Assembly: GCA_963663475.2 (NCBI GenBank)
Contig: CAXXJV010000002.1
Span: 192,001 to 256,000, forward strand
Reading direction: 5' to 3'
DNA length: 64,000 nucleotides
Source of the DNA: Candidatus Cloacimonadales bacterium
GTDB lineage: Bacteria > Cloacimonadota > Cloacimonadia > Cloacimonadales > JAFGVF01
Shown here piece after piece: positions 50,854 to 64,000 of this stretch (positions are counted from its first letter, which is position 1; each line of letters begins with the position of its first letter). The position numbers were made by a program, and so were the translations under genes. Under the pieces are notes generated by a model, which worked only from the letters and a program-made list of their open reading frames with translations, was not told the DNA's origin and searched no databases.

Positions 50854-52938
50854 TTATCCTACATTAAAAGTCTTTCTCATTTTAAACTCTTCTTGCTTAC
50901 CTTCATTCCACTGCTTGACAGGTCTTAGATAACCCACAACACGAGAATATATCTCTGTCTCTGTCTGACAAATAGGACAGCGACTTTCTTCACCCTTAAT
51001 GTATCCATGTTCTGGACAGACTGAGAAAGTAGGTGAGAAGGTAAAGTAGGGAAGATGATAATTAGAGCATACTTTTCTTACCAGATTTTTAACCGACTGG
51101 ATGTTACTAATTCTCTCTCCACCAAAAATATGAAGGACTGTTCCGCCTGTATATTTTGATTGTAAAGGATCCTGTAAGTCTAATGCTTCAAAAACATCAT
51201 CAGTGAAGTTGACTGGCAACTGAGTAGAGTTTGTATAGAAAGGCTTATCTGAATATGGATCATTATTAGCTACTATTATCTCAGGGAACTTCTTCCTATC
51301 AAGTCTGGCTAACCTATAAGTAGTTCCTTCTGCAGGAGTTGCTTCTAAGTTATAATTATTCCCTGTCTCTTCCTGATACTCAATAAGTTTCTCCCGCATA
51401 TAATCCATTATCTCAATAGCAAACTGTGAGCCTTCTTTACCTGTAATATCTTGCCCAAGGAAGTTTAAACATACCTCATTCATACCTATAAGCCCTATAG
51501 TGGAGAAGTGATTCTTCCAATATTGATTAAATCTTTGCTTAACATCTTGTAGATAGAAACTTGTATAAGGATAGAGATTTGATTCTGTAAAAGTCTCAAG
51601 AACTTTTCGCTTAATCTCCAAACTCTTTTTGGCTAAATCCATTTTCTCACTAAGTCTGTTGTAAAAATCTTCCTTACCCTTAGCTAAGTAAGCTATTCTT
51701 GGTAAATTAATGGTTACTACCCCAATTGAACCTGTTAATGGATTTGCACCAAATAAGCCACCACCTCTAGCTTCTAATTTACGGGTGTCAAGACGTAATC
51801 GACAGCACATGGAACGAGCATCTTCAGGACTCATCTCAGAGTTAACAAAATTTGAGAAGTAAGGTATGCCATACTTGCCTGTGGCTTCCCATAATAAATC
51901 TAAATCAGGATTATCCCAATCAAAGTCTTCTGTGATATTATAGGTAGGAATTGGGAAGGAGAAAACTCTTCCTTTAGCGTCACCTTCTGTCATGATTTCT
52001 AAAAATGCTTTATTAATCATAATCATTTCTTCCGCAAAGTCTCCGTATGTCTCTTCCATGACCTCTCCACCTATAATTACATTTTGATCTTTATAAATCT
52101 TAGGTGGGATTAAATCCATAGTGATATTAGTGAAAGGTGTTTGAAAACCAACCCTGGTAGGAACATTTATATTAAAAATAAACTCCTGCATGGCTTGCTT
52201 AACCTCAGCATAAGTTAAATTATCATACTTGATAAATGGGGCTAAAAGAGTATCAAAACTTGAAAATGCTTGTGCCCCAGCTGCTTCACCTTGCAGAGTA
52301 TAAAAGAAGTTAACAATTTGTCCAAGTAAACTTCTAAAATGCTTAGCTGGTTTACTCTCAATTTTACCCACAGCACCTGTAAAACCAACCTTGATTAAAT
52401 TATACAAATCCCAGCCTACACAATAAACTGACAATAACCCTAAATCATGGATATGAATATCACCTTGACTATGATTGTCTTTAATTTCTGTAGGATAAAT
52501 TTTATTTAACCAATATGTTTTGCTTACCTCTGAAGCAATATAATTGTTTAATCCCTGCAAAGAATAAGCCATATTACTATTTTCATTAACTTGCCAATCA
52601 AGTTTCTTTAAATATTGATCAATTAAATCAACATTTGATTTTGAGACAATTTCTCTAATTTTTGCATGCTGATCACGATAAATTATGTAACTCTTAGCTG
52701 TCTTCTTAAATGTTGATGAAAGTAGAATTTCTTCTACAATATCTTGAATCTTTTCTATAGTTATAATCTTGTCATTATGTAGTTGCAAAATTAAATTAAC
52801 TACCTTCATTGTCAGTTGCTCAGATGTCTCTTCTCCAAACTCTGCCGTAGCTAATCCTGCTCTTAAAATTGCCTTATTTATTTTATCTTTATCAAAAGCT
52901 ACTAATTCCCCTGTCCTCTTTAAAACAGCCTTAATCAT
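50854..52938 (-). CDS. nrdD: Class III anaerobic ribonucleoside-triphosphate reductase with ATP cone
   Basis: ATP cone KRTG..FDKDKI; HIHDL, SMCCRL, EATPAEG, YTGGT, Zn motif C..H...C..C and glycyl-radical YSRVVGY. Confidence 0.96.
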   Translation of the reverse strand: MIKAVLKRTGELVAFDKDKINKAILRAGLATAEFGEETSEQLTMKVVNLILQLHNDKIITIEKIQDIVEEILLSSTFKKTAKSYIIYRDQHAKIREIVSKSNVDLIDQYLKKLDWQVNENSNMAYSLQGLNNYIASEVSKTYWLNKIYPTEIKDNHSQGDIHIHDLGLLSVYCVGWDLYNLIKVGFTGAVGKIESKPAKHFRSLLGQIVNFFYTLQGEAAGAQAFSSFDTLLAPFIKYDNLTYAEVKQAMQEFIFNINVPTRVGFQTPFTNITMDLIPPKIYKDQNVIIGGEVMEETYGDFAEEMIMINKAFLEIMTEGDAKGRVFSFPIPTYNITEDFDWDNPDLDLLWEATGKYGIPYFSNFVNSEMSPEDARSMCCRLRLDTRKLEARGGGLFGANPLTGSIGVVTINLPRIAYLAKGKEDFYNRLSEKMDLAKKSLEIKRKVLETFTESNLYPYTSFYLQDVKQRFNQYWKNHFSTIGLIGMNEVCLNFLGQDITGKEGSQFAIEIMDYMREKLIEYQEETGNNYNLEATPAEGTTYRLARLDRKKFPEIIVANNDPYSDKPFYTNSTQLPVNFTDDVFEALDLQDPLQSKYTGGTVLHIFGGERISNIQSVKNLVRKVCSNYHLPYFTFSPTFSVCPEHGYIKGEESRCPICQTETEIYSRVVGYLRPVKQWNEGKQEEFKMRKTFNVG

Positions 52939-57355: not shown

Positions 57356-58123
57356 TTGAAACCTGAAAAAAGAAATCTAATCTTTATATTTGATTTGAAA
57401 AAATACATTCATCTATTAGAAAAAACTGATGAATTTTTAACAGCTTCGGAAAAAGAAAAGGCTAAAGAATTTATATCTCCCCTTAATGAGTATAAATTAT
57501 TATCTCAAATTATTAGGAGACTCATTCTCTCTTTCTTTTTAGATTGTCCTCCTCAAGAGATTACCTATAAATATCAAGAAAAAGGGAAACCAATACTTGA
57601 TAATGATAATTTATTCTTTAATATCTCTCATTCTAAAAACTATATGGCTATGGCACTTAGTATTAATAATGATATTGGTATTGATATTGAAGCTTTGGCT
57701 TATATTCCCAAGCTTAATTCATTCTTAAATACTTATCTAAACCCTGAAGAAAAAGCTAAATTTAAGAAAGAATTTAGCAATAATAAGGAATATTATGCCT
57801 ATACTTATTGGACAATGAAAGAAGCCTATCTTAAAGGAAGAGCTTTAGGCCTAGACTTTGATATGAAGAGAATTAGTCTAGTAAACGCCAGTAATCTTCA
57901 ACAAGATTCTTTAATGTTTGCTTGCAAAGTTGATGGAGTCTTAGATAAAAAATCATACACTACTATTTTAAAAATAAATGATGAAAAAGAACTTATGTGT
58001 GCAGTGAGCTTACGGAGTAATGAGGCTTTTAATATTGGTCAAAATCAGATAATCCAATTTCTAAATCCCCAACTATCAAAAGCATATATTTTTACTAAAC
58101 TTAACAAAAATGTAGAGGAATAA
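57356..58123 (+). CDS. 4'-phosphopantetheinyl transferase, Sfp type
   Basis: GKP, FNISHS, IGIDIE and WTMKEAYLKG motifs; TTG start. Confidence 0.92.
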   Translation: MKPEKRNLIFIFDLKKYIHLLEKTDEFLTASEKEKAKEFISPLNEYKLLSQIIRRLILSFFLDCPPQEITYKYQEKGKPILDNDNLFFNISHSKNYMAMALSINNDIGIDIEALAYIPKLNSFLNTYLNPEEKAKFKKEFSNNKEYYAYTYWTMKEAYLKGRALGLDFDMKRISLVNASNLQQDSLMFACKVDGVLDKKSYTTILKINDEKELMCAVSLRSNEAFNIGQNQIIQFLNPQLSKAYIFTKLNKNVEE

Positions 58124-59263
58124 ATGAAAGAATATAATTTCAGTGATAGAATTGAAGATACGGAAGTCAAGAGAGTTTATAAAGTTGTTAAAAATCATAA
58201 AGAACTAACAAAAGTAATTGATGAAATGCCAATTTGGATTTTAATTCTCAATAAAACTAGGCAAGCAGTATATTATAACAAAAAGTTATCAGATGATTTG
58301 CAAGTTAAAGATAAATGGGATGTTCTTGGTTTAAGACCTGGGGAGCTCTTCTCTTGTCAACATGCATGGGCTGATCAGGCTGGATGTGGTAATTCTGAAT
58401 TCTGTAAATATTGTGGAGCAGTAAAATCTATTCGTAATTCTCATTTTGGTAAAAAAGATGTTCAAGAATGTAGATTGTTAATAAATAATAATAAGCAAAT
58501 CAATGCAATGGATTTAGAAGTTTCTTCATCTCCCTTAGTCTTGGATTCTGAAGAACTCACCCTATTCTCAATCTTAGATATATCTGCTTTAAACAAGTCC
58601 CTATACATTGAAAAGACCTTCTTACACGATATTAGAAATACTGCTGCTGCTATAGTCTCCAATGCAGATTTAATAAGCCTTGAAGAAGATCCTGAAATTA
58701 AAGATGAACTGCTAAAATTATTAACTCCAACAGCTCATCAACTAATAGAAGAAATAGCAGCTCAACAGGAAATTAGAAGTGCTGATCTAGGTGAATGGAA
58801 ACCTGCTAATAAAACCGTTGAAAGTAGAGAGGTAGTTGATAAAGTAATTGATACATGTAAGCATTATATTATAGACTCTGATATTAAAATTGTTAAATCA
58901 ATCGAATCTTTTTCACTTAAAACTGAAGAAATATTACTGAAGAGAGTATTAATAAATATGCTCAAGAATGCTATAGAAGCATCAAAAGATGGGGATATTA
59001 TTACTATCCAAGGGAAGAATTTAAATGATGTCTCAGTAATTTTTTCTGTCCATAATCCTAAGTATATTCCTGATGATATAAGACTTCAACTCTTTCATCG
59101 CACCTTTTCCACCAAAGGAAATAATCGCGGTTTGGGAACATATAGCATAAAAATGATAACAGAAAACTATCTTAATGGAGAAGTTAGCATTCATTCAGAT
59201 AAGATACACGGAAGCGTATTTTCAATAACTATTCCCAAAGATAATCAATCTGAAAATGATTAG
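58124..59263 (+). CDS. Cytoplasmic histidine kinase with Cys-rich PAS-like sensor
   Basis: RPGELFSC...GCG...CKYC...ECR; H-box FLHDIRN; NMLKNA, FSTKG and GLGTY; no TM helix. Confidence 0.88.
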   Translation: MKEYNFSDRIEDTEVKRVYKVVKNHKELTKVIDEMPIWILILNKTRQAVYYNKKLSDDLQVKDKWDVLGLRPGELFSCQHAWADQAGCGNSEFCKYCGAVKSIRNSHFGKKDVQECRLLINNNKQINAMDLEVSSSPLVLDSEELTLFSILDISALNKSLYIEKTFLHDIRNTAAAIVSNADLISLEEDPEIKDELLKLLTPTAHQLIEEIAAQQEIRSADLGEWKPANKTVESREVVDKVIDTCKHYIIDSDIKIVKSIESFSLKTEEILLKRVLINMLKNAIEASKDGDIITIQGKNLNDVSVIFSVHNPKYIPDDIRLQLFHRTFSTKGNNRGLGTYSIKMITENYLNGEVSIHSDKIHGSVFSITIPKDNQSEND

Positions 59264-62200
59264 TTTTTCTGCTCAAGTAGCATCTTAGATATTACTTTTG
59301 AGATATCTTCGACATAAGGGTATTTCAATACAGTTGTATGGGAACCTTTCACTGAATAATAATTAATTTTATTTACCATCCCTGACCAACCATATTTAGG
59401 GTCAGGGATTAATCCTTCTAGAGCTTGTTCAGCTAAAAAGAGATTAATTTCACCTGCTAAATCAGACATTGTATGATTATTCAATGCATCAATATTATAG
59501 CGATATATTCTTTTAAGTTTATCTATTTCTTCTTGAGATTTCCCTCCTAAGCTTTCTGTTATATTCTCAATAAAATCTTCTTCTAAAACTTTATGAATAT
59601 TAGAGAAGTTACTCAGTTTAGTATGGAGATAAGACTTCCAGAATTCTGGTCCTAAAATCACAGCATTAAATAACCTTCTCAATTGGTAGGTAATCTTTCT
59701 AAGTTTAGTATTTGGTCTGCCCCAAGTCTCTATTAAATAAAGGTTAACTTGAGTCTTGCCTCTCTTCTTTAGTTCATTTCCGATTTCATAGGCTAGAATA
59801 CCACCATAACACCATCCTCCTATATAGTAGGGACCAGTTTTTTGGATTTTTAAAATCTCAGCAGTATATTTTTCTACCATATCTTTAAAACAAGTATGGC
59901 ATTCAGCAGAGCTTAAGCCTTGAGATTGGATTCCATAAACTGGTATCTTATTGTCTAAGGAGTGAATTAGGTTCACATAGCCAAGAACATCTCCAGGAGT
60001 AGTGTGGGTTAGGAAAAGAGGTTTGTAATTTTTATCTCCACTCTGCAGAGGTGTAATTATGGAAAAATCAGCTTGTTTTTCTTCTTGTAGATAGCGAGAT
60101 AAGTCTCTCACTGTAGAATGCTGATAGAGTGATGAAGAGTTTATCTTCATATTTAAAGCTTTTTCTAAAGATACAATGAGCTCGATAGCTTTAAGAGAAT
60201 CACCTCCTTCTTTAAAAAAGTTATCATCAGGTTTAATTTGTTTACCTAAAACTTGTCTAAAGAGGGGAAGTATTTTGAGTTCATATAAGTTATAAGCTTG
60301 GACATTTACTTGCTTTTCTTGGATTTTAGGTTCAGGAAGTAAGGACTTATTAATTTTTCCATTAGGGTTTAAAGGAAGTTTATCAATTCTAATAAACTCA
60401 CTTGGCAACATATATTCTGGAAGATATTCTTTGGCAATAGCTCTTAAATTATCCTTGTCCATATCACTATTACTTAGGTAATAGAGGTAGATTTGACGGT
60501 GGTTTTCTTGACCTCTAATGTCTGCAAAAACAGTTTTTAAGGAAGTTCTTTGCATAAAAGTATTTTCAATTTCTGATAATTCAATACGGTAGCCATTCAG
60601 CTTTATTTGATCATCATCTCTTCCTAAGAATTTTATTTTGCCTGATTTATAAAAGAGACCTAAATCACCAGTAGCATATATTCTACCATATTCAGAAGTC
60701 TCAATAAACTTCTCATTTGTAAGTTTAGGGTTAGCAAAATAGCCTGGAGTAAGGCCAAAACCTCCAATATAGATTGATCCACTAAGGCCTATTGGTCTAG
60801 GTTTAAGGAACTTATCTAAGATATGGATAGAAGTATTTGGCATAGGTTTTCCGATTGTATCATCAATTCCCTCATCAATAGTAGCAATGATAGTAGCTTC
60901 AGTTGGACCGTAAGTATTGAAGATTTTCGTATGTTTAGGTCCATGTTCTTGCCAGAAGGAATAGATATCTTGCGAGGCTTTTTCTCCACCAATGACAAGA
61001 GTTTTTACTTTATCTGAGAAAGTATTTTGAGTTAAGGATTTGGTGATTTGCTGCCAAAAAGCTGTAGGAAGATTCACTATAGTTATTTTTTTAGATGCGA
61101 TAAAATCTAAGAATTGAGAAGCAGATTTATTGATTTCTTCATCTCTAAGGACAAGGCTAGCTCCAGCCAAGAGAGTAGGGAAAATCTCTTCCACCGAGAT
61201 GTCAAAACTTATGGAAGCGAATTGCATAACCCTGTCAATGCTTGTGATATCATATCTATCTTTAACAATGAGATTATGGTTGATTAGGTTAAAATGACTT
61301 ACTGTAACGCCTTTAGGCTTGCCAGTAGTGCCAGAAGTGTAGATAATATAGGCTAAGTCTTGCGGATTTATTTTTATCTCATTTTTGTTATTTGACAGGT
61401 ATTTCTGGTAATTAGTCACTGATAAAAAGTCTAAATTTTCCAAGGAAGAATAAGATAAATCAGAGAAAATAGTTTTACATTTAGAATTTTCGATTATATG
61501 TTTAATTCTTTCATGGGGATAATCAGGGTCAATAGGCAGATAGGCATTTCCACTTTTGAGAATTGCTAAGATAATAATTATCATTTCTAGGCATCTATCA
61601 GTTGAAATAGCGATGAAATGTCCTTGTCCATATTCATTGAAGAGGTAGTTAGCTAAATCATCAGAAATTTCATCAAGATGCTTGTAAGTGATGTGTTTAT
61701 CAGCATGTTCTACTGCAATATTATCTGGGTATTTACTTACCGAATCTTTGAATAAATCAATATAAGAAACATTTTTTGGTAAAGGTAATTTTACAGAATT
61801 CCATTGCTTAATTAGGGATAAATCAGTCTCATTGATAAGTAATATATCCTTTAGAGGTAAATGATCTTGGAGATTAGATTTGAAGGTTGAATAAAGAAGA
61901 TTATCTTCAATAACTTCATAATTAGTAAGGATTTTAGCAAGATAAGCAAGGTCTGGGAATCGATAGAAAATACTTTTTAATAAGGATTTATGTTTTTTGA
62001 TTCTTGAAATACTTTTCTGAATATTTGTGATATTTTCTTGAAGAGATAACTTGAAATCTACTTTAATATTAAGCAGGAGTTTATTCATCAGAAGTGGATT
62101 ATTGTTTTTATAAGTAATTGCAAGAGAGAAATTAGATTGGGTATAAAGACGAGCAATAAAGCAAATGTAAGTTGCTAAGTCTGGATTATCAAAGTCCAAA

Positions 62201-64000
62201 TTATCAGAATTACTTACTTTATTATATTTGCCATTAAGGTCTTCTAAAGCTTGGTATTTAGCAAATTGTTTAAGCCAAAAGGCCTGATTTTTGATAGCAT
62301 CTTTATAAGATGCCAAATCTTCTAAAGTAGGTGGTTGCCAAGACTTCTCATCTCTTAGATCATGTAAGTTAATTTCTTGACCTGTAAGATTATAAAGTTT
62401 ATTAGCTATGATTAATCCATCTTTTAGATTTATCTCACAAGTTGATTGGCTAATGCTGAGATTTTTTGCATCACTAGTAGAGTTGCGCTTAAATTGAGCT
62501 TGTCCAATATGATAAAATTCATTAGCAATTTTGATTTTAAGACTTGCCACAGGGTTTTCAGTATCACCAAAAATACTAGCTCTGTATAAATTATCAGCTT
62601 GATCAATGCCTGTATCTGCTAGTAAAGAACAAGAATAATCAGGTCTATAGTCAGCGGGGAAATAAGTTCTTTTGCTTAAGTCTTGTGGATAAGTTTGCAA
62701 ATCATTATCATTAATAGAATCAAGTAAAGATGAAAAGGCATCTAGTGCTGCTTCATAGCATTTCATATTCAAAGAAAGAGAAGTATCTTCTTTGTTAACT
62801 TCTACTTGCTTTTGAATTAGTATCTGTCCAGTATCAATACCTTGGTCTACTTGATGCCAGGTAATACCGTGGTTTGTCTCATTATTTATAATAGCCCAAT
62901 AAGTAGCATAAAGTCCAGCATATTTAGGAAGTAAGGAATCATGATAATTAATAGCTTTCTTAATTGGACTAGCTAGAATCTCTTCATCTAAGACAATACT
63001 ATTGACAATACTAAAAAGGTAGTCATAAGGGTACTTCTTTAATATTTCTTTGATTTGATTCTTGGTTAAATCAAGAGAATAGATTCCTTGGCTTATAGCC
63101 CAGTCTCTAACTTGCTTATTTGGTGAAAATATTCCATAAATGTGAAAACCTTTGGCAATAAGTAATTGGGCAGATTTAATGCCCAGACTTGTCTCAGTTA
63201 AGATAAAGCAAGTATTTTTATTAGCTGTTACAGTAGGAGGATTCAAGTTATCAAGTAAATCTAAAAATCTCTCTTTTACTTCCTGGATTAGTGATTCTTG
63301 ATAGAAATCGGTATTATATTCTAACCAGAACTCCATTCCTGTTTGGATTTCTTCAGCATTTAAGATGATATCAGTTTTAGAAGTATTAGCCCCGATTTCT
63401 TTTTCTGATTTGATGATAGAATTTTCATCTGTTCCATGCCAATTTTGCATAACAAAAATAGCTTGATAGAGAGGAGTTTTAGATTTATCTATAGGTAGGT
63501 TAAAACTTTTAACTACATCTCCAAATGGTTGAGAACTATGGTCTAGGGCTGCCATAACTTGCTTGTGAATTTCAGTTATGATATCTTTAAAGGATTTATT
63601 AAAAAGCATAGCTCTTACAATAACCATGTTAGTATAATAACCTATTAATTGCTCTTCAATCTTACTTTTTCTTCCAGCAAATGGGAAGGCAACTGTGATA
63701 TCACTTCTTTGGGATTTTTCGGCAAGAACTATTTGATATATTGCTAGAAGAAGTGAGAAGAGAGAAACTGAGTTTGCTTGAGCAAACTTACTAATCTTTT
63801 CTAAGTGAATATTATCAATCTTAAACCAAATTCTCTTACCTTTAGGACTAAGATACTTATGCTTTATTCTATCTGGAATAAGGGCTAGGTCTGGAGAGAA
63901 GGGTTTAAGGACTTTATGCCAGTAGTCTTGATCTGTCTCATAGCTATTTGCCTTATCTTGTAGCCATTGGGCATAGTCTATATTCTCTACTTTTGCTTTT
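59260..64000 (-). CDS. Non-ribosomal peptide synthetase, 3' part: C - formyltransferase - A - PCP - TE (5' end outside window)
   Basis: The frame is open from the window edge (KAKVENIDYAQWL...YW...FAGR...IGYYTNMV, a C domain). It continues through F (NYHDSLLPKYAG, GIDTG), A (YTSGTTGKPKG, YGPTE, TGDL, NGK), PCP (FF..GGDSL) and TE (GWCYG, GSH). Confidence 0.95.
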   Translation of the reverse strand, partial: KAKVENIDYAQWLQDKANSYETDQDYWHKVLKPFSPDLALIPDRIKHKYLSPKGKRIWFKIDNIHLEKISKFAQANSVSLFSLLLAIYQIVLAEKSQRSDITVAFPFAGRKSKIEEQLIGYYTNMVIVRAMLFNKSFKDIITEIHKQVMAALDHSSQPFGDVVKSFNLPIDKSKTPLYQAIFVMQNWHGTDENSIIKSEKEIGANTSKTDIILNAEEIQTGMEFWLEYNTDFYQESLIQEVKERFLDLLDNLNPPTVTANKNTCFILTETSLGIKSAQLLIAKGFHIYGIFSPNKQVRDWAISQGIYSLDLTKNQIKEILKKYPYDYLFSIVNSIVLDEEILASPIKKAINYHDSLLPKYAGLYATYWAIINNETNHGITWHQVDQGIDTGQILIQKQVEVNKEDTSLSLNMKCYEAALDAFSSLLDSINDNDLQTYPQDLSKRTYFPADYRPDYSCSLLADTGIDQADNLYRASIFGDTENPVASLKIKIANEFYHIGQAQFKRNSTSDAKNLSISQSTCEINLKDGLIIANKLYNLTGQEINLHDLRDEKSWQPPTLEDLASYKDAIKNQAFWLKQFAKYQALEDLNGKYNKVSNSDNLDFDNPDLATYICFIARLYTQSNFSLAITYKNNNPLLMNKLLLNIKVDFKLSLQENITNIQKSISRIKKHKSLLKSIFYRFPDLAYLAKILTNYEVIEDNLLYSTFKSNLQDHLPLKDILLINETDLSLIKQWNSVKLPLPKNVSYIDLFKDSVSKYPDNIAVEHADKHITYKHLDEISDDLANYLFNEYGQGHFIAISTDRCLEMIIIILAILKSGNAYLPIDPDYPHERIKHIIENSKCKTIFSDLSYSSLENLDFLSVTNYQKYLSNNKNEIKINPQDLAYIIYTSGTTGKPKGVTVSHFNLINHNLIVKDRYDITSIDRVMQFASISFDISVEEIFPTLLAGASLVLRDEEINKSASQFLDFIASKKITIVNLPTAFWQQITKSLTQNTFSDKVKTLVIGGEKASQDIYSFWQEHGPKHTKIFNTYGPTEATIIATIDEGIDDTIGKPMPNTSIHILDKFLKPRPIGLSGSIYIGGFGLTPGYFANPKLTNEKFIETSEYGRIYATGDLGLFYKSGKIKFLGRDDDQIKLNGYRIELSEIENTFMQRTSLKTVFADIRGQENHRQIYLYYLSNSDMDKDNLRAIAKEYLPEYMLPSEFIRIDKLPLNPNGKINKSLLPEPKIQEKQVNVQAYNLYELKILPLFRQVLGKQIKPDDNFFKEGGDSLKAIELIVSLEKALNMKINSSSLYQHSTVRDLSRYLQEEKQADFSIITPLQSGDKNYKPLFLTHTTPGDVLGYVNLIHSLDNKIPVYGIQSQGLSSAECHTCFKDMVEKYTAEILKIQKTGPYYIGGWCYGGILAYEIGNELKKRGKTQVNLYLIETWGRPNTKLRKITYQLRRLFNAVILGPEFWKSYLHTKLSNFSNIHKVLEEDFIENITESLGGKSQEEIDKLKRIYRYNIDALNNHTMSDLAGEINLFLAEQALEGLIPDPKYGWSGMVNKINYYSVKGSHTTVLKYPYVEDISKVISKMLLEQKN

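What the first reader, a model, noticed from the sequence alone, without database searches (positions are those of the whole stretch)
59263..60050. Terminal thioesterase has a cysteine nucleophile (GWCYG) and Glu at the usual Asp position
Seen: the nucleophile elbow reads GG-W-C-Y-GG (TGT codon at 59809-59811) instead of GxSxG. The strand that normally ends in Asp reads LYLIETW, and the C-terminal His (KGSHTTV) is retained. Established: Cys-type NRPS TEs are uncommon and include the beta-lactone-forming ObiF1 TE and the beta-lactam-forming SulM TE. Inference: release may involve unusual chemistry such as strained-ring closure or aminolysis rather than hydrolysis, though Cys alone does not prove this.
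Basis: partly seen in the sequence, partly recalled or inferred. Interest (0 to 1): 0.75.

Follow-up and report, generated by a model that had tools for sequence, protein, structure and literature searches.

The report
Cysteine-glutamate release domain of peptide synthetase
The last domain of this two-module peptide-making enzyme really does use cysteine and glutamate where textbooks show serine and aspartate, but this is the shared habit of a large, uncharacterised enzyme branch and not a sign of beta-lactone or beta-lactam chemistry.

Summary
The terminal thioesterase (TE, window 59263-60111, minus strand) reads GGWCYGG (TGT at 59809-59811), LYLIETW (GAG at 59728-59730) and KGSHTT (CAT at 59338-59340).

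It is not a sequencing error. Contigs of 4 runs from 3 studies show no other letter at the Cys codon. Seven orthologues use TGT or TGC. 43 of 47 word-search homologues carry Cys.

The TE belongs to a large Cys branch. Among 193 related TE domains, 98 are Cys/Glu, 34 Cys/Asp and 47 Ser/Asp. The nearest solved relative is the uncharacterised Acinetobacter AB3403 (profile E 3.6e-54, Z 26.6). ObiF1 scores E 0.036, and SulM is not among the 60 listed hits.

The acid follows strand 6, as in EntF and AB3403. It does not follow strand 7, as it does in ObiF1 and SulM. Asp and Glu swapped at least 16 times on the tree, so Glu looks like a conservative variant.

The gene is a stand-alone A-T-C-formyltransferase-A-T-TE synthetase. 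Most likely it forms an acyl-S-Cys intermediate carrying a small formylated dipeptide that ends in a basic-type residue. Whether water or an amine releases the product is unresolved. Strained-ring closure is not supported. Interest is moderate.

The parts
59260..64000 (-). 3' two thirds of the NRPS gene. The whole gene is 2332 aa from an ATG at window-equivalent 66258 (or 2344 aa from a TTG at 66294), both beyond the window end. Architecture: A-T-C-formyltransferase-A-T-TE.
59263..60111 (-). Terminal type I thioesterase domain, 283 aa. TE numbering below starts at 1 here.
   Evidence: PF00975 hit; AlphaFold2 model with mean pLDDT 90.7 and an alpha/beta fold; best solved match AB3403 4ZXH, VIA Z 26.6, rmsd 2.9 A, 247 aligned
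59809..59811 (-). TGT, Cys101 of the TE: the nucleophile in the GGWCYGG elbow, right after model strand 95-100
   Evidence: no other letter in contigs of 4 runs; Cys in 43 of 47 homologues
59728..59730 (-). GAG, Glu128 of the TE: the acidic residue directly after model strand 122-127 ('position I'), aligned with the Asp of AB3403 and EntF
59338..59340 (-). CAT, His258 of the TE, in the loop after model strand 246-254
   Evidence: His in 98% of Cys/Glu rows
59401..59403 (-). Asp237 of the TE (IPDPKYGW), a conserved Asp in the long loop between strands 7 and 8. Its role is unknown and it could not be excluded as a second acid.
   Evidence: Asp in 82 of 98 Cys/Glu, 23 of 34 Cys/Asp and 31 of 47 Ser/Asp rows
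60088..60273 (-). Second carrier (PCP) domain with the GGDSL serine, feeding the TE
   Evidence: PF00550 at residues 1243-1304 of P0001; translation
60736..61752 (-). Second adenylation domain. The ten pocket residues read DIENVGTIIK, with an acidic residue at pocket position 239.
   Evidence: PF00501; pocket residues picked by motif anchors. The anchor positions are recalled, not tool-derived.
62734..63069 (-). Formyltransferase domain inserted between the condensation domain and the second adenylation domain. The Asn/His/Asp catalytic motif is present.
   Evidence: PF00551, 74.8 bits; alignment to ArnA, sugar N-formyltransferases and the LgrA F domain
63244..63978 (-). C-terminal part of the condensation domain. 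Its HHxxxDG motif lies beyond the window end.
   Evidence: PF00668; full protein printed
57356..58123 (+). Sfp-type 4'-phosphopantetheinyl transferase gene, two genes from the 3' end of the NRPS; the likely activator of its carrier domains
   Evidence: PF01648 and PF22624; an ORF of like size (248-272 aa) stands at the same place in 4 same-genus genomes, but it was not scanned against Pfam

Best explanation
This is a working terminal type I thioesterase of the EntF/AB3403 structural group. It uses a Cys101-His258-Glu128 triad, with the acid in the usual NRPS place after strand 6. The dipeptidyl chain on the second carrier domain is passed to Cys101, giving a thioester acyl-enzyme, and is then released. 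The substrate is small: one residue from module 1 joined to a basic-type (Lys-like) residue from module 2, formylated by the in-line formyltransferase. Cys and Glu are inherited traits of a large, uncharacterised TE branch that mostly ends one- or two-module synthetases. They are not special to this gene. What is shown: the residues, their conservation, the fold, the kinship and the domain order. What is inferred: the covalent thioester step, the nature of the substrate and the release step. For release I lean slightly to attack by an amine (about 45%) over water (about 40%). The amine would be either the side-chain amine of the basic residue or an outside amine. Four-membered ring closure is unlikely (under 5%).
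For: The residues were read directly.

Conservation:
- 43 of 47 word-search homologues have GWC[YF]G; the 4 weakest (E 1e-12 to 6e-5) have Ser.
- Of 193 TE domains in the tree, 98 are Cys/Glu, 34 Cys/Asp, 47 Ser/Asp, 1 Ser/Glu and 13 other.
- The window sits in well-supported sets of 17, 20 and 33 rows, which hold only Cys types (32 Cys/Glu and 1 Cys/Asp in the largest).
- Synonymous codons are used for Cys, Glu and His among 7 orthologues.

Fold:
- The model has pLDDT 90.7. Cys follows strand 95-100, Glu follows strand 122-127 and His follows strand 246-254.
- The best solved match is AB3403: Foldseek E 5.6e-18; VIA Z 26.6 against 24.6 for the next; profile E 3.6e-54.
- Glu128 aligns with the AB3403 and EntF Asp.

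Substrate size and type:
- All 76 Cys/Glu proteins with an adenylation domain are 2700 aa or shorter.
- 51 of the 72 with a readable pocket have Glu at pocket position 239 plus D/N/S/Q/A at 278; 12 are Pro-like and 3 Gly-like.

The gene stands alone. The same neighbours occur in 4 same-genus genomes and quite different neighbours in the sister genus.

The lean to non-hydrolytic release rests on three points. The studied Cys TEs ObiF1 and SulM close rings, and the SulM Cys-to-Ser variant hydrolyses the product (passages). SrbD, AntB and BbchF are proposed to release with homocysteine (passage). Thioesters react with amines more readily than oxoesters do (general chemistry, recalled).
Against: No member of this branch has a known product, and AB3403 itself is called uncharacterised.

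The conserved Asp237 in the loop between strands 7 and 8 cannot be excluded as the acid.

Against amine release:
- Branch members with Pro-like or Gly-like pockets have no side-chain amine.
- No acceptor-making genes lie nearby.
- Here both amines of the basic residue may already be used, one by formyl and one by residue 1.

The nucleophile changed at least 8 times on the tree, so Cys and Ser may be closer to interchangeable than I assume.

The Lys-like reading of the pocket rests on recalled positions and recalled published codes. The only tool hint is a good NCBIfam score to the Lys-using MxcG model (363.8 bits, far below its cut-off of 2300).

The Cys/Glu association could not be shown to be co-evolution. 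In 10 of 11 independent pairs that differ in the acid, the nucleophile does not differ.
Confidence: 0.7

Rival explanations
1. Plain hydrolase. The TE simply hydrolyses the dipeptidyl thioester to a linear acid. Cys is a lineage habit equivalent to Ser, and Glu is equivalent to Asp.
For: The product is short and linear by domain order. No partner genes lie in the flanks. Cys/Ser changed at least 8 times and Asp/Glu at least 16 times among 193 TE domains. Branch members with Gly-like and Pro-like pockets lack an internal nucleophile.
Against: Cys is kept without exception in the 33-row supported set around the window, although Ser is one base away. It is also kept in relatives down to about 25-30% identity, but those were fetched with a motif that contains Cys. 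In the two Cys TEs tested by others, Cys was needed for non-hydrolytic release (passages).
Confidence: 0.38
2. ObiF1/SulM-like strained-ring closure. The Cys thioester is attacked by a beta-hydroxyl or beta-amine of the last residue to give a beta-lactone or beta-lactam.
For: It shares a Cys nucleophile and a small substrate with ObiF1 and SulM. The exact chain length of the basic-type residue chosen by module 2 is not known, so a short diamino acid is not strictly excluded.
Against: ObiF1 and SulM have the Asp after strand 7 and no acid after strand 6. Putting an acid or a bulky residue at the strand-6 site of ObiF1 cut activity (passages). This TE has a conserved Glu at that site. The profile gives E 0.036 for ObiF1 against 3.6e-54 for AB3403, and SulM is not in the 60 listed hits of 81. 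Neither is among the 50 best structural matches. No transaldolase, diaminopropionate or sulfotransferase genes were seen in the flanks.
Confidence: 0.04
3. Artefact or relic. The TGT is a sequencing or assembly error for a Ser codon, or the TE is a decaying domain.
For: TGT is one base from AGT and TCT. The laid runs are contigs, not raw reads.
Against: Four runs from three studies agree. Orthologues in 5 of 6 other same-genus genomes and in one sister genus keep Cys with both codons. The triad and 50 further positions are at least 80% conserved in the Cys/Glu group. The reading frame is open over 2332 aa.
Confidence: 0.01

Closest known systems
Thioesterase domain of AB3403 (ABBFA_003403), Acinetobacter baumannii, PDB 4ZXH/4ZXI
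   Same: It is the best solved match by sequence (E 2.3e-18), by clade profile (3.6e-54) and by structure (Z 26.6). It has the GGWC[FY]GG Cys elbow, an acid after strand 6 and His after strand 8. Its product is also unknown (passage in PMC11298585).
   Different: AB3403 has Asp, not Glu. Its loop after strand 3 reads HPIGG, whereas this branch has HTTPGD. It ends a single C-A-T-TE module that binds Gly (passage in PMC10212144). There is no formyltransferase. Identity is only about 24% over the TE.
EntF thioesterase (enterobactin), PDB 3TEJ, 2ROQ, 5JA1
   Same: Same fold and same triad positions (Z 24.5 and 23.8; E 7e-12). The NCBIfam EntF model aligns through the whole A-T-TE part.
   Different: EntF has a Ser/Asp/His triad and trimerises and cyclises DHB-Ser (its function is recalled). 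It lacks Asp237 (gap in the alignment).
ObiF1 (obafluorin beta-lactone) and SulM (sulfazecin beta-lactam) thioesterases
   Same: Cys nucleophile and small products (passages).
   Different: Their Asp sits after strand 7 with no acid after strand 6, a RifR-like arrangement. Sequence kinship is only marginal (ObiF1 E 0.036; SulM not among the 60 listed of 81). Their substrates carry a beta-hydroxyl or a sulfamated beta-amine supplied by cluster genes, and none were found here.
SrbD, AntB and BbchF thioesterases (sorangibactin, anthrochelin, bulbichelin)
   Same: Cys in place of Ser. They are proposed to release with an amine-bearing outside nucleophile, homocysteine (one passage of PMC13573596). 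This is a precedent for aminolysis.
   Different: The alignment is in a supplementary figure that I did not see. They end multi-module siderophore lines.
Formylation (F) domain of linear gramicidin synthetase LgrA, and sugar N-formyltransferases / ArnA
   Same: The inserted domain matches ArnA (E 4e-16), sugar N-formyltransferases (1e-13) and LgrA (3e-12), with the Asn-His...Asp motif aligned.
   Different: In LgrA the F domain opens the first module (recalled). Here it lies inside the protein, between a condensation and an adenylation domain.

Membership tests
Type I thioesterase domain of NRPS termination modules (Pfam PF00975, alpha/beta hydrolase) | Pfam Thioesterase match above the gathering score, fused directly after a carrier domain at the protein's C-terminus | tested here: met
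   60.1 bits against a cut-off of 26.4; PP-binding at residues 1243-1304 and TE from 1327 to the stop codon
Type I thioesterase domain of NRPS termination modules (Pfam PF00975, alpha/beta hydrolase) | Alpha/beta-hydrolase fold with the nucleophile elbow after strand 5 and a helical lid between strands 6 and 7 | tested here: met
   Model pLDDT 90.7; elbow after strand 95-100; four helices at 136-211 between strands 122-127 and 218-227; Z 20-27 to 50 solved TE entries
Type I thioesterase domain of NRPS termination modules (Pfam PF00975, alpha/beta hydrolase) | Serine nucleophile in GxSxG | tested here: not met
   GWCYG, with Cys encoded by TGT; the literature accepts Cys as a less common alternative
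Type I thioesterase domain of NRPS termination modules (Pfam PF00975, alpha/beta hydrolase) | Acidic triad residue after strand 6 (position I) and His after strand 8 | tested here: met
   Glu128 instead of Asp, and His258; both placed by model topology and by alignment to AB3403 and EntF. Distances were not measured because no coordinates were given.
AB3403-type Cys thioesterases | Closest kinship to AB3403 among solved chains | tested here: met
   Rank 1
AB3403-type Cys thioesterases | Cys in the GGWC[FY]GG elbow with the acid at position I | tested here: met
   the acid is Glu here and Asp in AB3403
AB3403-type Cys thioesterases | Single C-A-T-TE module with a Gly-binding adenylation domain | tested here: not met
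   Two modules plus a formyltransferase; the pocket is not Gly-like
ObiF1/SulM-type ring-closing Cys thioesterases | Cys nucleophile | tested here: met
ObiF1/SulM-type ring-closing Cys thioesterases | No acid at position I (Gly in ObiF1) | tested here: not met
   Glu128 at position I; an acid (Glu or Asp) stands there in 132 of the 145 Cys rows of the tree set; feature taken from passages
ObiF1/SulM-type ring-closing Cys thioesterases | Triad Asp on the loop after strand 7 (position II) | tested here: inconclusive
ObiF1/SulM-type ring-closing Cys thioesterases | Sequence kinship to ObiF1 or SulM | tested here: not met
   ObiF1 E 0.036 and 16.7 bits against 187 bits for AB3403; SulM is not among the 60 listed of 81 hits
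ObiF1/SulM-type ring-closing Cys thioesterases | Cluster genes that supply a beta-hydroxy or beta-amino last residue | tested here: not met
   None among 16 neighbouring proteins here or among 6 neighbours of the sister-genus orthologue; only the flanks were examined
LgrA-type NRPS formylation domain | Formyl_trans_N fold with catalytic Asn, His and Asp | tested here: met
   PF00551, 74.8 bits; motif aligned to ArnA
LgrA-type NRPS formylation domain | N-terminal position in an initiation module | tested here: not met
   The domain lies after A-T-C at residues about 1064-1175 of 2332

The most novel reading that the evidence does not exclude
The Cys-His-Glu branch, recognisable by HTTPGD ... 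GWC[YF]GG ... ET ... G.H, could be a dedicated release family for small N-capped basic amino acids. A formyl, acetyl or aminoacyl cap would be put on by a fused formyltransferase, GNAT or condensation domain. The Cys thioester would then be resolved by an amine rather than water. That amine could be the residue's own side chain, giving an N-acyl aminolactam, or an outside acceptor. The C-formyltransferase-A-T-TE module would then be an undescribed module type making formylated dipeptide lactams or amides in a Bacteroidota-type anaerobe.
Probability: 0.2. Interest if true: 0.7.

Novelty: new variant of a known kind. Interest (0 to 1): 0.42.

Why it matters
Cys-type release domains are usually discussed through two famous ring-closing enzymes, ObiF1 and SulM. 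This case shows that a much larger Cys branch exists. At least 329 loci in one-genome-per-species collections match one Cys motif. This branch has the ordinary triad geometry, often has Glu as the acid, and has no known product. It mostly ends one- or two-module synthetases, and in the sample here these often carry a formyl- or acetyl-transferase and a basic-type pocket. A single stand-alone 7-kb gene with its activating transferase next door is an easy target for expression. It could give the first product and release chemistry for the whole branch, AB3403 included. If release turns out to be plain hydrolysis, the finding is only an annotation caution: Cys does not mean beta-lactone.

Tried and rejected
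I used profile scores against solved chains instead.
- Triad distances: structure prediction returns no coordinates (one search shows none in /data), so only topology was used.
- Co-evolution of Cys with Glu: the independent-pairs test gave 3 and 11 supported pairs, with the other trait unchanged in nearly all. There is no support.
- The search for related loci used a motif with Leu where the window and its orthologues have Ile. It therefore missed the close relatives and returned only Cys-bearing distant ones by construction. These loci say nothing about how often Cys occurs.
- Naming the organism: cluster look-up gave no names. I place it only as Bacteroidota-type, from type IX secretion sorting domains.
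- The ESM Atlas gave only generic 'thioesterase' clusters.
- Earlier scan notes by place and by sequence: nothing.
- Literature: 'Cys-His-Glu' with 'thioesterase' gave 2 papers, neither on NRPS TEs by title. 'Formyltransferase domain' + nonribosomal + Bacteroidetes gave 0. Caprolactam + thioesterase domain gave 3, none relevant by title. GXCXG + thioesterase gave 4, of which only the ObiF1 paper concerns NRPS.
- The FastTree topology carries long-branch warnings. No slower, more careful tree was run.
- No RNA run holds the stretch, so expression is unknown.
Full report
**What is there.** A minus-strand ORF ends at window 59260 and runs off the window's right end. Pfam finds Condensation, Formyl_trans_N, AMP-binding, PP-binding and Thioesterase in the window part. 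The full protein begins with a further adenylation and carrier domain. The order is therefore A-T-C-formyltransferase-A-T-TE.

The last 283 residues (59263-60111) are the TE. Its elbow reads GGWCYGG with TGT at 59809-59811. The strand-6 end reads LYLIETW with GAG at 59728-59730. The C-terminal His sits in KGSHTT with CAT at 59338-59340.

**Not an error.**
- Contigs from four public runs were laid on the TE. Two carry one organism label and may be the source; one is from wastewater and one from a microbial mat; they come from three studies. All cover the Cys codon, and no other letter is listed there, although the two metagenome runs differ from the window at 7 and 22 other listed places. These are assembled contigs, not raw reads.
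- A search of 41 related genomes with the TE found it in 14, including the window's own genome. It was found in 5 of 6 other genomes of the same genus; the one without a match is 97% complete in 230 contigs. It was also found in a sister genus at 61% identity.
- I fetched 11 of the 13 matches outside the window's own genome, and all 11 read GWC[YF]GG.
- The own gene and six orthologues use TGT four times and TGC three times for the Cys. They use GAG or GAA for the Glu and CAT or CAC for the His (the script stopped after 7 of 12 loci).

**A clade trait.**
- The word-based protein search returned 47 homologues. 43 of them (E up to 1e-31) have GWC[YF]G, and the four weakest have Ser.
- The exhaustive representative search counted 24,820 proteins at E up to 0.001 and listed the best 150.
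- After cutting out and aligning TE domains, 193 rows went into a FastTree: 98 Cys/Glu, 34 Cys/Asp, 47 Ser/Asp, 1 Ser/Glu and 13 other. These rows were chosen by likeness to a Cys/Glu query, so the shares are not general frequencies.
- The window lies in well-supported sets of 17, 20 and 33 rows. These hold 32 Cys/Glu and one Cys/Asp.
- On the tree the nucleophile changes at least 8 times and the acid at least 16 times.
- The one close orthologue-like protein with Asp (P0015, 53% identical) shows the swap inside the same architecture.
- An independent-pairs test gives no support for Cys and Glu evolving together. Glu is almost confined to Cys-type domains, but Asp/Glu flips mostly happen on an unchanged Cys background.
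- Cys-type rows also share HxxPGD after strand 3, where Ser-type rows have HxxGG.
- A scan of one genome per species with one Cys motif of this branch found 329 relatives. These were mostly uncultured Verrucomicrobiota, Victivallales, Kiritimatiellales and Desulfomonile. Cys is in that motif by construction, and the motif missed the window's closest kin.

**Which known TE it resembles.**
- By sequence the best solved chain is AB3403 of Acinetobacter baumannii (E 2.3e-18). AB3403 also reads GGWCFGG and has Asp where this TE has Glu. EntF follows.
- A profile of 70 clade members scores AB3403 at 3.6e-54 (187 bits), EntF near 1e-30, surfactin TE at 9e-12, RifR at 5e-3 and ObiF1 at 0.036 (16.7 bits). 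SulM is not among the 60 listed of 81 hits.
- The AlphaFold2 model (pLDDT 90.7) puts Cys101 right after strand 95-100, Glu128 right after strand 122-127 and His258 after strand 246-254.
- Foldseek ranks 4ZXH first. VIA-align gives it Z 26.6 (rmsd 2.9 A, 247 residues), two units above the next entries. Neither ObiF1 nor SulM is in the 50 listed.
- No coordinates were returned, so I could not measure triad distances. A conserved Asp237 in the long loop between strands 7 and 8 remains a possible alternative acid. It is equally conserved in Ser/Asp domains and absent from EntF and AB3403 in the alignments.

**What the papers say** (passages only).
- The SulM structure paper states that ObiF1 and SulM alone place the Asp after strand 7. 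It states that AB3403 is the only other solved NRPS TE with Cys, that it keeps the Asp after strand 6, and that it is uncharacterised. It also reports that SulM Cys-to-Ser hydrolyses the product (PMC11298585).
- The ObiF1 paper shows Gly at the strand-6 site and loss of activity when an Asp or Leu is placed there (PMC6668435).
- A 2026 paper notes Cys in the TEs of SrbD, AntB and BbchF, which are proposed to release with homocysteine (PMC13573596). Its alignment is in a supplement I did not see.
- So the ring-closing precedent does not fit this TE's geometry, while an amine-release precedent exists.

**Context and substrate.**
- The neighbours are glycine-cleavage P-protein genes on one side. 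On the other side are an ATPase-domain protein, an Sfp-type phosphopantetheinyl transferase, two TPM-domain proteins, LemA and an amine oxidase.
- Four same-genus genomes keep this order by ORF sizes. The sister-genus orthologue lies among restriction-modification genes and a PhzF-like gene. The synthetase therefore looks self-contained.
- I picked the ten pocket residues of the adenylation domain next to each TE by motif anchors whose positions I recall from the literature. The window's second domain reads DIENVGTIIK, and its orthologues differ at one or two places.
- Of 72 Cys/Glu proteins with a readable pocket, 51 have Glu at position 239 with D/N/S/Q/A at 278. From recall, this pattern is typical of domains for basic amino acids such as Lys. 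A further 12 are Pro-like and 3 Gly-like. All 76 Cys/Glu proteins with an adenylation domain are at most 2700 aa.
- Pfam on eight relatives shows formyltransferase-A-T-TE, GNAT-A-T-TE, A-T-TE and A-T-C-formyltransferase-A-T-TE layouts.
- The inserted formyltransferase matches ArnA, sugar N-formyltransferases and the LgrA F domain, with the catalytic Asn, His and Asp aligned.

**Most likely mechanism.** The chain on the second carrier domain is a formylated dipeptide ending in a basic-type residue. It is passed to Cys101, which is activated by His258 and Glu128, to give a thioester acyl-enzyme, and is then released. The covalent step and the substrate are inferences from homology.

The release step is open. 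Three things favour an amine nucleophile: the behaviour of the few studied Cys TEs, thioester chemistry, and the tight retention of Cys near the window. Three things favour water: branch members with Gly or Pro pockets, the lack of partner genes, and the likelihood that both amines of the last residue are already used. I put amine release at about 45%, hydrolysis at about 40% and four-membered ring closure under 5%.

**Verdict.** The ObiF1/SulM analogy is not supported. The Glu is a conservative clade variant. The domain is a new variant within the known, structurally represented but functionally unknown AB3403-like Cys TE group, carried by an undescribed C-formyltransferase-A-T-TE module. Other notes of this scan reached similar views on AB3403-like Cys TEs in other genomes. 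They are leads, not evidence.

Noticed in passing
window 62734-63069 (minus strand): A formyltransferase domain sits inside the synthetase, between the condensation domain and the second adenylation domain, with its catalytic Asn/His/Asp motif intact. It is kept in all close orthologues. My paper searches turned up no description of such an internal position.
   Followed up: partly
window 61753-62733 (minus strand): About 325 residues between the formyltransferase N-domain and the adenylation domain have no Pfam match here. In relative P0016 a Formyl_trans_C domain is detected in the same place, and in GNAT-type relatives only the last 50 positions of a condensation domain remain before the adenylation domain.
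   Followed up: no
window 57356-58123 (+) and 58124-59263 (+): An Sfp-type phosphopantetheinyl transferase and a 379-aa protein with only a histidine-kinase-type ATPase domain converge on the 3' end of the synthetase. ORFs of the same sizes stand there in four same-genus genomes.
   Followed up: partly
TE residues 36-45, window 59977-60006 (minus strand): Cys-type thioesterases of this sample carry HxxPGD in the loop after strand 3 (Pro 91% and Asp 94% in Cys/Glu rows; Pro 74% and Asp 82% in Cys/Asp rows). Ser-type rows have HxxGG (Gly 68%). AB3403 itself has the GG form.
   Followed up: partly
L100 (G024:C1:1809000-1828999): In another family of the same order, a 3126-aa synthetase with a Cys/Asp TE lies between a GNAT, an NDP-sugar dehydratase/epimerase and a Wza-like polysaccharide export gene. 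This looks like a surface-polysaccharide locus.
   Followed up: no
L099 (G007:C1:297000-316999): A sister genus of the same family has a 1930-aa A-T-C-A-T-TE synthetase with a Cys/Glu TE but no formyltransferase. It lies next to an 1859-aa gingipain-family (C25) peptidase gene.
   Followed up: no
window 50854-52938 (-); L001 11691-13358 and 14180-16282: An anaerobic ribonucleotide reductase gene lies here, together with two proteins carrying type IX secretion sorting tails. This points to a Bacteroidota-type, probably anaerobic organism. Near-identical DNA occurs in wastewater and microbial-mat metagenome assemblies.
   Followed up: partly
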